A stretch of DNA of 64,000 nucleotides, taken from the human T2T-CHM13v2.0 reference genome, Homo sapiens. A program made the translations under genes and the position numbers. Each line of letters begins with the position of its first letter. Positions within the stretch are counted from its first letter, which is position 1. Below are positions 12,123 through 15,100 of the stretch, piece after piece. The notes beneath the pieces are model-generated. The model searched no databases and was not told the origin of the DNA. It was given only the letters and a program-made list of their open reading frames with translations. The stretch is from the NCBI RefSeq assembly GCF_009914755.1, contig NC_060936.1; one strand, given 5' to 3'.

Positions 12123-15100
12123 ATGACATGATTGAATTCACACATAACAATATTAACCTTAAATGTAAATGGGCTAAATGCCCCAATTAAAAGACACAGA
12201 CTGGCAAATTGGATAAAGAGTCAAGTCCCATTGGTGTGCTGTATTCAGGAGATCCATCTCATGTGCAAAGACATGCATAGGAAGTTTACCTTAACCTTTA
12301 CCAAGTTAACCAGCTCACAAGTTGGTTGTGATGGAGGAATATTTACCAAGCAAATGGAAAGCAAAAAACAAGGGTTGCAATCCTAGTCTCTGATAAAACA
12401 GACTTTAAACCAACAAAGATCAAAAAAGACATAGAAGGGCATTACCTAATGGTAAAGGGATCAATGCAACAAGAAGAGCTAACTATCCTAAATATATATG
12501 CACCCCATACAGGAGCACCCAGATTTATAAAGCAAGTTCTTAGAGACCTACTAAAATACTTAGACTCCCAGACAATAAGAGTGGGAGACTTTAACACCCC
12601 ACTTAGCACCCAGATTCATAAAGCAAGTTCTTAGAGACCTACAAAAAGATTTAGACTCCCACACAATAATAGTGGGAAATTTTGACACCCCATTGTCAAT
12701 ATTAGGTAGATCAACAAGTCAGAAAATTAACAAGGATATTCAGGACTTGAACTCAGTTCTGGACCAAGCAGACCTAATAGATAGCTACTGAACACTCCAC
12801 CCCAAATCAACAATATACATTCTTCTTAGCACCACATCGCACTTATTCTAAAATTGACCACATAATTGGAAGTAAAACACTCCTCAGCAAATGCAAAATA
12901 ACAGAAATCGTAACAGACAGTTTCTCAAACCACAGTACATTCAAATTAGAACTCAGGATTACAAAACTCACTCAAAACCGCACAACTACATGGAAACTGA
13001 ACAACCTGCTCCTGAATGACTACTGGGTAAATAACATTAAGGCAAAAATAAATAAGTTCTTTGAAACCAATGAGAACACAGACACAATGTACCAGAATCT
13101 CTGGGACACAGATAAAGCAGTGTCCAGAGGGAAATTTATAGCACTAAATGCCCACAGGAGAAAGCGAGAAAGATCTAAAATTGACACCCTAACATCACAA
13201 TTAAAAGAACTAGAGAAGCAAGAGCAAATGAATTCAAAAGCTAGCAGAAGACAAGAAATAACTAAGATCAGAGCAGAACTGAAGGAGATAGAGACATGAA
13301 AAACCCTTCAAAAAAATCAACGGATCTGGGAGCTGTTTTTTTTTTTTTTGAAAAGATTAACAAAAATAGACCACTAGCCAGACTAATAAAGAGGAAAAGA
13401 GAAGAATCAAATAGACACAATAAAAATGATAAAGGGGATATCACTGCTGATCCCACAGAAATACAAACTACCATCAGAGAATACTATAAACACCTCTGTG
13501 CAAATAAACTAGAAAATCTAGAAGAACTGGAAAAATTTCTGGACACATACATCCTCCCAAGACTAAACCAGGAAGAAGTCAAATCCCTGAATAGACCAAT
13601 AACAAGTTCTGAAATTGAGGCAGTAATTAATAGCCTAACACCCCCCCCCCAAAAAAAAAAAAGCCCAGGACCAGATGGATTCACAGCCAAATTCTACCAG
13701 AGATACAAAGAGGAGCTGGTACCATTCCTTCTGAAACTATTCCAAACAATAGAGAAAGAGGGACTCTTCCCTAACTCATTTTATGAGGCCAGCATTATCC
13801 TGATACCACAACCTGGCAGAGGTACAAAAAAAAAATTTCAGGCCAATCTTTCTGATGAACATCAATGCGAAAATCCTCAGTAAAATACTGGCAAACAGAA
13901 TCCAGCAGCACATCAAAAAGCTTATCCACCATGATCAAGTTGGCTTCATCCCTGGGATGCAAGGCTGGTTCAACATACACAAATCAATAAATGTAATCCA
14001 TCACATAAACAGAACCAATGTCAAAAACCAGGTGATTATCTCAATAGATGCAGAAGAGGCCTTTGATAAAATTCAACACCTTCATGCTAAGAACTCTCAA
14101 TTACTAGATATCAATAGAATGTATCTCAAAATAATAGCTATTTATGACACACCCACAGCCAATATCATACTGAATGGGCAAAAGCTGGAAGCATTCCCTT
14201 TGAAAACTGGCAGAAAACAAGGATACCCTTTCTCACCACTCTTGTTCAATATAGTATTGGAAGTTCTGGCTAGGGCAATCAGGCAAGAGAAAGAACTAAA
14301 GGTATTCAAATAGGAAGAGAGGAAGTCAAATTGTCTCTGTTTGCAGATAACATGATTACATATTTAGAAAACCCCATTGTCTCAGCTCAAAATCTCCTTA
14401 AGCTGTAAGTAACTTCAGCAAAGTCTCAGGATACAAAATCAATGTGCAAAAATCACAAGCATTCCTATACACCAATAACAGACAAACAGACAAATCATGA
14501 GTGAACTCCCATTCACAATTTCTACAAAGAGAATAAAATACCTAGGAATACAAATTACAAGGGATATGAAGGACCTCTTCAAGGAGAACTACAAACCACT
14601 GCTCAAGGAAATAAAAGAAGACCCAAACAAATGGAAAAACATTCCATGCTCATGGATAGGAAGAAGAATCAATATCATGAAAATGGCCATACTGTCCAAA
14701 GTAATTTATAGATTCAATGCTATCCCCATCAAGCTACCACTGACTTTCTTCACAGAATTGGGAAAAAAACTACTTTAAATTTCACACGGAACCAAAAAAG
14801 AGCCTGTATAGCCAAGACAATCCTAAGCAAAAGGAAAAAAGCTGGAGGATCATGCTACCTGACTTCAAACTATACTACAAGGCTACAGTCACCAAAACAG
14901 CATGGTACTGGTACCAAAACAGATATATAGACCAATGGAACAGAATAGAGTCCTCAGAAATAACACCACACATTTACAACCATCTGATCTTTGACAAACC
15001 TGACAAAAACAACCAATGGGGAAAGGATTCCCTACTTAATAAATGGTATTGGGAAAACTGGCTAGCCATATGCTGAAAATGAAAACTGGACCCCTTCCTT

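What the first reader, a model, noticed from the sequence alone, without database searches (positions are those of the whole stretch)
12279..12331. 45-bp templated copy of upstream unique DNA inserted into the L1 endonuclease region
Seen: aggaagtttaccttaacctttaccaagttaaccagctcacaagtt (12279-12323) matches 8252-8296 at 43/45 nt in the same orientation, ~4 kb away and outside the L1. It replaces ~12-13 nt of L1; the second L1 shows the intact catagg-tcaaaataaagg-gatggagg at ~25535-25562. The left junction has agg microhomology. The added ttgtga (12326-12331) is the reverse complement of tcacaa (12315-12320), a fold-back that ends on L1 'ga'. Known: deletion plus templated patch plus microhomology is the signature of polymerase-theta end joining or template-switch repair, usually templated from much closer DNA. 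Inference: a fossil germline break repair using a distal cis template. The lost bases include an endonuclease-like TC|AAAA site.
Basis: partly seen in the sequence, partly recalled or inferred. Interest (0 to 1): 0.7.

Follow-up and report, generated by a model that had tools for sequence, protein, structure and literature searches.

The report
Old repair patch copied from nearby
A 48-base patch inside a dead human jumping gene copies unique DNA from 4,000 bases upstream and is likely the scar of an ancestral germline break repair, a kind of scar already catalogued by the hundreds, so it is real but ordinary.

Summary
Observation confirmed. 12279-12323 matches 8252-8296 at 43/45 nt, and these are the only two sites genome-wide at <=3 mismatches. 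A 48-nt insert (42 copied + 6 filler) replaces 13 nt of ORF2 in a full-length, TSD-flanked, broken L1; 33 of 36 related L1 loci keep 13 nt there and none has the patch. Unique donor <5 kb away, 3-nt microhomology, 13-nt deletion, filler, no TSD and no polyA/T tail fit the 'repair-mediated duplication' class of Pace et al. 2009 (824 human cases). It misses only their 50-bp cut-off and is not among their chr12 rows. The 4-kb distance is inside that class, not unusual for it. The polymerase-theta label is not established: its typical tracts are <10 nt and lie within ~20 bp. The fold-back (P~0.02-0.08) and endonuclease site (11% background) are weak evidence. New details: the donor is itself unusually self-repetitive, and both donor/patch differences match the L1 flank right of the break (post hoc P~0.001-0.005), hinting at iterative template switching. 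The age is bounded only by the L1's age. Low interest.

The parts
8252..8296 (+). Donor: unique 45-nt segment (first 3 nt are the shared microhomology); the copy stops 2 nt into a 9-T run (8295-8303)
8225..8300 (.). Self-repetitive donor neighbourhood: 13-nt direct repeat (8227/8246), 9-nt inverted arms (8246-8254/8268-8276), 7-nt inverted arms (8264-8270/8276-8282); 45 of 76 nt lie in >=7-nt repeats
9740..9752 (+). 5' copy of the host L1's 13-nt target-site duplication, at a TT|AAAA site
9753..16251 (+). Full-length, broken primate L1 hosting the patch (L1PA7-8 age range; subfamily label recalled, no repeat library here); longest stop-free stretch 205 aa
12279..12281 (+). 3-nt priming microhomology shared by the L1 left flank and the donor
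12282..12323 (+). 42-nt copied tract; differs from the donor at 12289 and 12304; lies ~53 codons after the ORF2 start-like ATG at ~12123 (endonuclease domain by recalled ORF2 layout)
12324..12329 (+). 6-nt filler, covered by two short inverted matches to the copied tract (12323-12327 to 12308-12312; 12326-12331 to 12315-12320)
12330..12331 (+). L1 resumes; 2-nt possible resolving microhomology; 13 nt of L1 lost across the junction
12342..12350 (+). 9-nt L1 flank motif identical to patch 12297-12305; both donor/patch differences lengthen a match to it
12514..12695 (+). 91-bp tandem duplication in the same ORF2, 11 of 91 differences, 1 shared derived base; probably a separate, early event
16252..16264 (+). 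3' copy of the 13-nt target-site duplication, identical to the 5' copy
25544..25555 (-). Uninterrupted equivalent site (12 nt) in the window's second L1, used as an in-window empty-site reference

Best explanation
The 48-nt patch is a copy of unique DNA 4 kb upstream that replaces 13 nt of an old L1, likely made when a germline double-strand break in the already inserted L1 was repaired by microhomology-primed copying from a nearby template (a repair-mediated duplication). Shown: copy, donor, uniqueness, deletion, microhomology, filler. Inferred steps: (1) break near 12282 with loss of 13 nt; (2) the left 3' end anneals to the donor by 3 nt of microhomology; (3) about 42 nt are copied until the AT-rich tract enters a 9-T run and synthesis aborts; (4) the freed end folds back once or twice on its new sequence, adding the filler; (5) it rejoins the right end at about 2 nt of microhomology. 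The polymerase cannot be named from sequence. An SDSA-like invasion finished by theta-type end joining is the most economical guess. No function is expected: the L1 is broken throughout and the site is intronic in LINC02450.
For: Only two genomic sites; 0 of 36 related L1 loci carry the patch and 33 of 36 keep 13 nt, so the L1 is the acceptor. The donor's inverted repeats extend beyond the shared 45-mer and both differences break them in the patch, which also gives donor->L1. The junction is microhomology + deletion + filler with no TSD or polyA/T, the commonest pattern among proximal RDs (10 of 39; microhomology 2-9, deletion 1-15, filler 1-68 nt; PMC2671141 Table 1). Donor-acceptor divergence of 4.4% lies within the range of hominid- to catarrhine-age RD rows seen in their Table S1. 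Aborted synthesis in AT-rich templates and repeated priming rounds are documented for theta (PMC7165422 passages), as is snap-back extension (PMC4912351 passages). Insertion scars are common in such L1s: 10 candidates in 108.5 kb of 36 loci, of which by eye 7 are short complex insertion scars and 1 is a foreign insert.
Against: No primate orthologue was available, so the post-insertion timing is not shown: 2/45 differences cannot be told from the L1's own pairwise divergence of 7.5-9% (P(<=2 of 45)=0.22-0.33; 95% interval 0.5-15%). A 3-nt microhomology is weak. One 42-nt tract from 4 kb is atypical for theta. The fold-back statistic is marginal. The polarity argument is weak alone, since 36 of 45 donor positions sit in a repeat arm. 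A break cannot be told from a stalled-fork template switch by sequence. The two other L1 inserts tested had no donor at <=3 mismatches (0 of 2), so no second distal-donor case was found here.
Confidence: 0.7

Rival explanations
1. Replication-fork template switching without a two-ended break (FoSTeS/MMBIR type): a stalled nascent strand in the L1 jumped to single-stranded DNA 4 kb away, copied 42 nt, and returned 13 nt downstream.
For: Same footprint: short microhomology or microhomeology, several switches, return to the original template; germline templated insertions of this kind were found in normal human genomes (PMC8421209 passages). The donor folds more stably than shuffles (z -2.5 to -2.6), which would expose single strand.
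Against: The yeast templated insertions that paper starts from lie within 100 bp. Deletion plus filler plus a <5-kb donor matches the RD table directly. The two routes leave nearly the same scar.
Confidence: 0.15
2. The patch was made during the L1's own insertion: L1 reverse transcriptase left its RNA in mid-ORF2, copied 42 nt of target-flanking DNA (then only 1.44 kb from the nick), and returned to the RNA.
For: The donor ends 1,443 nt from the 5' TSD, near the ~1.2-kb RD distance peak. The age is compatible with insertion time. The same ORF2 has a 91-bp tandem duplication about as old as the L1 (11 of 91 differences). L1 RT template switching to other RNAs is documented and keeps the same orientation (PMC13174262 passages).
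Against: The passages read describe chimeras joined at L1 ends, not an internal out-and-back switch. The insertion is otherwise clean: full length with an intact 13-nt TSD. The tandem copies share 1 derived base, which suggests duplication after insertion.
Confidence: 0.07
3. RNA-templated repair (class 2 TSIP type): a nascent + strand transcript spanning the donor was reverse-copied into the break.
For: Donor and patch lie in the + strand LINC02450 transcription unit (hub annotation) in direct orientation; class 2 TSIPs show microdeletion, microhomology and added bases without TSD (PMC5110952 passages).
Against: Experimental TSIs mapped to distant regions and were 73-414 bp. Direct orientation has a 50% prior. 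No Rfam match at E<=1 in 7500-12700. Germline transcription of the region at that time is unknown.
Confidence: 0.04
4. Assembly artefact, or copying in the reverse direction (L1 patch to 8252).
For: Not tested against independent assemblies or reads.
Against: Two internal differences, a 13-nt deletion and a filler are not what a misjoin gives. The L1 relatives lack the sequence, and the donor's repeat structure spans the boundary of the shared segment.
Confidence: 0.03

Closest known systems
Repair-mediated duplications (RDs), Pace, Sen, Batzer & Feschotte 2009, PMC2671141 (read: abstract to discussion, parts 1-5 of 8, methods passages, all chr12 rows of Table S1)
   Same: Transposon interrupted by a single-copy insert; donor on the same chromosome <5 kb away; microhomology, 1-15 nt deletion and filler; no polyA/T tail.
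   Different: 48 nt is below their 50-bp cut-off (mean 162 bp). 3,985 nt is in the tail (71 of 824 lie at 3-5 kb). Not dated with primate genomes here.
Short paired duplications, 'doublets' (Thomas et al. 2004; paper not held; known only as described in PMC2671141 and recalled)
   Same: Short non-tandem local duplication, under 100 bp, attributed to imperfect break repair.
   Different: Their exact criteria could not be read or tested.
Polymerase-theta templated insertions (TINS), PMC7165422, PMC11541566, PMC4912351 (passages)
   Same: Priming and resolving microhomology, AT-rich aborted synthesis, fold-back filler, several rounds.
   Different: Primary tracts rarely >10 bp and templates mostly within ~20 bp of the junction; here 42 nt from 4 kb.
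MMBIR/FoSTeS templated insertions, PMC8421209 (passages)
   Same: Microhomology-primed switch and return; occur as germline variants.
   Different: Templates in the passages read are local (within 100 bp in the yeast model); no larger rearrangement is evident here.
Class 2 templated sequence insertion polymorphisms, PMC5110952 (passages)
   Same: Patch with microdeletion, microhomology and added bases, no TSD.
   Different: Donors are distant and proposed to be RNA-derived; this donor is proximal and the polymorphism status is unknown.

Membership tests
Repair-mediated duplication (Pace 2009) | Insert interrupts a transposon whose two fragments are collinear (within 30 bp of each other in the family sequence) | tested here: met
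   13 nt lost against 33 of 36 relatives; alignment to the second L1
Repair-mediated duplication (Pace 2009) | Insert found at exactly one other genomic site | tested here: met
   2 sites genome-wide at <=3 mismatches
Repair-mediated duplication (Pace 2009) | Donor on the same chromosome, >50 bp and <5 kb away | tested here: met
   3,985 nt
Repair-mediated duplication (Pace 2009) | Microhomology, deletion and/or filler at the junctions; no polyA/T tail | tested here: met
   microhomology 3, deletion 13, filler 6; the donor's T run was not copied
Repair-mediated duplication (Pace 2009) | Insert >=50 bp (operational search cut-off, described by the authors as a drawback of the method, not a mechanistic feature) | tested here: not met
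   48 nt; cut-off. It therefore falls outside their catalogue but works like its members
Repair-mediated duplication (Pace 2009) | Empty site in an outgroup primate (post-insertion origin) | not testable with these tools
   no related genomes held
Polymerase-theta templated insertion | Short primary tract (<~10 bp) from a template within tens of bp | tested here: not met
   42 nt from 4 kb, against PMC7165422 and PMC11541566; only the 6-nt filler fits
Polymerase-theta templated insertion | Fold-back or iterative templated filler | tested here: inconclusive
   P=0.075 and P=0.018 against random filler; flank-matching differences P=0.001-0.005 post hoc
Polymerase-theta templated insertion | Genetic dependence on POLQ | not testable with these tools
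   fossil event
L1-mediated (TPRT) insertion / class 1 TSIP | TSD around the insert and a polyA tail | tested here: not met
   deletion instead of a TSD, no A/T tail
L1-mediated (TPRT) insertion / class 1 TSIP | Endonuclease consensus at the site | tested here: inconclusive
   one-mismatch site in the lost 13 nt; background 11.4% of 13-nt windows

The most novel reading that the evidence does not exclude
The patch records one polymerase oscillating between a template 4 kb away and the partner break end. Both 'mismatches' to the donor are 2-nt excursions onto the right-hand L1 end, made at TTTA and TTTACCA microhomologies and followed by an in-register return to the donor. The donor was accessible because it was itself an open, iteratively extended break at the time; its 76-nt neighbourhood looks like a chain of templated syntheses. 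That would tie proximal repair-mediated duplications to theta-type iterative joining between two simultaneous germline breaks, and would mean donor-acceptor divergence overstates their age.
Probability: 0.15. Interest if true: 0.45.

Novelty: new member of a known kind. Interest (0 to 1): 0.17.

Why it matters
Little by itself: it is one more fossil of a described mutational process (0.62 RDs of >=50 bp per Mb of transposon DNA; PMC2671141 Table 3) in a dead L1 within a lncRNA intron. Its use is as a clean worked example with known donor, acceptor and pre-event state. It also points to a testable class-wide question: whether donor-acceptor differences in short proximal duplications are templated from the break flanks, and whether donors are enriched for scar-like or hairpin sequence. 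That would bear on which pathway makes RDs.

Tried and rejected
Multicopy or family origin: rejected. Donor as a known RNA: no Rfam match at E<=1 in 7500-12700. TPRT of the 45-mer itself: no TSD, no tail, and the donor's T run lies on the strand that a T-rich endonuclease-nicked primer could not pair with in this orientation (sequence; inference). Endonuclease origin of the break: neither supported nor excluded. Donor chosen for homeology to the L1 flank: its 7-nt match is reached in 56 of 256 control positions, so chance. Dating by divergence: uninformative. A contiguous-genome baseline for local duplications could not be obtained; the baseline rests on the 64-kb window (1 such pair), 36 L1 loci and the published rate. 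Donor search for 2 of the 8 real inserts seen in other L1 loci: none found at <=3 mismatches; the other 6 were not searched genome-wide. Prior description of this locus: not among the 102 chr12 occurrences in Table S1 of PMC2671141 (37 rows in the <5-kb sheet, none in L1PA7/8, longest distance 2,917; hg18 coordinates not lifted over; only the mirror copy of the supplements answered). A 'LINC02450' search returned 2 expression papers (listing only). Thomas 2004 and Stroik 2024 were not held.

Full report
Observation. The match is real: 12279-12323 equals 8252-8296 at 43 of 45 bases on the same strand, with differences at 12289 and 12304. A whole-assembly pattern search at up to 3 mismatches finds these two sites only, and none for the reversed control. 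The 251-nt donor region has no other match at E<=1 (the tool warns that it skips very common words). It is the only such non-tandem pair (>=28 nt, >=88% identity, 0.1-10 kb apart) in the window.

Host element. The patch lies in a full-length L1 on the + strand, 9753-16251, bounded by an identical 13-nt target-site duplication at 9740 and 16252. Its reading frames are broken throughout; the longest stop-free stretch is 205 aa. Its non-CpG pairwise distance to 29 related loci is 6.8-9.9%, median 9.0%. That fits the L1PA7-8 period; the label is recalled, and PMC2671141 places L1PA7/8/8A at 30-42 Mya. An ORF2 start-like ATG lies at about 12123, so the patch falls near codon 53, in the endonuclease domain by the recalled ORF2 layout.

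Junction anatomy. Between the conserved flanks, 33 of 36 related loci have 13 nt, 2 have 14 and 1 has 20; the window has 48 and no relative has the patch. The window's second L1 has 12 nt. The 48 nt are a 42-nt copied tract and a 6-nt filler, after a 3-nt microhomology; copying ends 2 nt into a 9-T run of the donor. The filler is covered by two short inverted matches to the tract. Against random fillers, a >=6-nt inverted match has P=0.075 and full coverage by >=5-nt matches has P=0.018, so the fold-back is suggestive only. The endonuclease-like site in the lost bases is weak evidence: 11.4% of 13-nt windows of this L1 hold a site within one mismatch of TTAAAA, and 3.6% hold YYAAAA.

Direction. 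The L1 relatives lack the sequence, so the L1 is the acceptor. The donor's 9-nt inverted repeat and 13-nt direct repeat use bases outside the shared segment, and both differences break donor inverted repeats in the patch. That last point is weak because 36 of 45 donor positions lie in some repeat arm.

Age. Two differences in 45 give 4.4% (95% interval 0.5-15%). If the event were as old as the L1, two or fewer would occur with P=0.22-0.33. The event can therefore lie anywhere from the insertion to fairly recent times. No primate genomes were held.

What it is. PMC2671141 (parts 1-5 of 8, methods passages and chr12 rows of Table S1 read) scanned human transposons for inserts of >=50 bp with one other genomic copy. 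It found 824 with the donor within 5 kb, 753 of them within 3 kb. All 39 proximal junctions inspected lacked polyA/T tails. Microhomology + deletion + filler was the commonest pattern (10 of 39), with microhomology 2-9, deletion 1-15 and filler 1-68 nt. This locus meets every tested feature except the 50-bp cut-off, which the authors call a drawback of their method. It is not among their chr12 rows: 37 rows in the <5-kb sheet, none in L1PA7/8, longest distance 2,917 (coordinates not lifted over). So the distance is in the tail of a known class and not outside it.

Mechanism. Shown: copy, donor, deletion, microhomology, filler. Inferred: a germline break in the resident L1; priming of the left end on the donor; abortion of synthesis at the T run; fold-back; rejoining. 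Pace et al. propose SDSA. It does not fit the main tract: primary theta tracts are rarely above 10 bp and templates peak within 20 bp of the junction (PMC11541566 passages). A fork template switch (PMC8421209 passages) leaves the same scar. I give 0.70 to post-insertion break repair, 0.15 to a fork switch, 0.07 to a switch during L1 insertion (the donor was 1,443 nt from the target site), 0.04 to RNA-templated repair and 0.03 to artefact or reversed direction.

How ordinary. In 108,516 L1-like bases of the 36 loci, a coverage screen gave 10 candidates and recovered this patch as a positive control. By eye, 7 are short complex insertion scars (L003, L005, L007, L023, L025, L026, L035), several visibly templated from adjacent sequence; 1 is a foreign 96-nt insert (L006), 1 a microsatellite (L002) and 1 mere divergence (L008). 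Two of the 8 real inserts (L006, L007) were searched genome-wide and had no donor at <=3 mismatches. Templated scars are thus frequent in L1s of this age. Ones with a clear distal donor are rarer; the published rate is 0.62 per Mb of transposon DNA for >=50 bp.

First, the donor neighbourhood is unusually self-repetitive: 45 of 76 nt lie in >=7-nt repeats, a level reached by 47 of 6,393 windows, most of them in a few clusters such as the tandem repeat near 52.3 kb; fold z is about -2.5. It resembles a chain of short templated syntheses. Second, both differences lengthen a match to the L1 flank just right of the junction, from 3 and 4 nt to 6 and 9 nt. For random substitution pairs this has P=0.0012 (right flank, direct) or 0.004-0.005 (both flanks, both strands); the 9-nt match is reached at 4 of 256 control positions. 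These tests were chosen after seeing the pattern, so they are leads. They fit short excursions to the partner end during synthesis, or later repeat-templated mutation. Against the excursion model, a 9-nt pairing with the partner end should normally have completed the join.

Verdict. Real, explained by a known process, no expected function: new member of a known kind, interest 0.17. The bold reading, iterative switching between two open breaks 4 kb apart, has probability about 0.15 and is testable with primate orthologues.

Noticed in passing
window 12514-12695: 91-bp tandem duplication in ORF2 about 185 nt downstream of the patch; 11 of 91 differences, 1 shared derived base, no clear junction microhomology; no relative showed a second unit start.
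   Followed up: partly
window 9631-9840: The annotated LINC02450 exon 9631-9839 runs through the TSD and ends 87 nt inside the L1 5' UTR at a GT splice donor supplied by the L1 (with hub annotation), so this exon boundary postdates the L1.
   Followed up: no
window 7474-7509: Perfect 36-nt AT-rich palindrome about 740 nt upstream of the donor.
   Followed up: no
window 8225-8300: Scar-like cluster of direct and inverted repeats around the donor; top 0.7% of windows.
   Followed up: partly
L023:2793-2834, L025:2929-2986, L005:1177-1207, L035:938-963, L003:2438-2472, L026:3537-3561, L007:1322-1355: Complex short insertions in other old L1 copies, several made of repeated direct and inverted copies of adjacent sequence, as expected of iterative end joining.
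   Followed up: partly
L006:2375-2470: 96-nt non-L1 insert ending in a (GA)n run, without loss of L1 bases; its first 44 nt have no second genomic copy at <=3 mismatches.
   Followed up: partly
L018 and L019 (G000:C11, about 35 kb apart, opposite strands): Equal-scoring L1 stretches in inverted orientation, probably a local inverted duplication; a similar pair lies on C10 near 92.33 Mb.
   Followed up: no
window about 13335-13350: A T run inside ORF2 of the host L1, longer than in the relatives seen.
   Followed up: no
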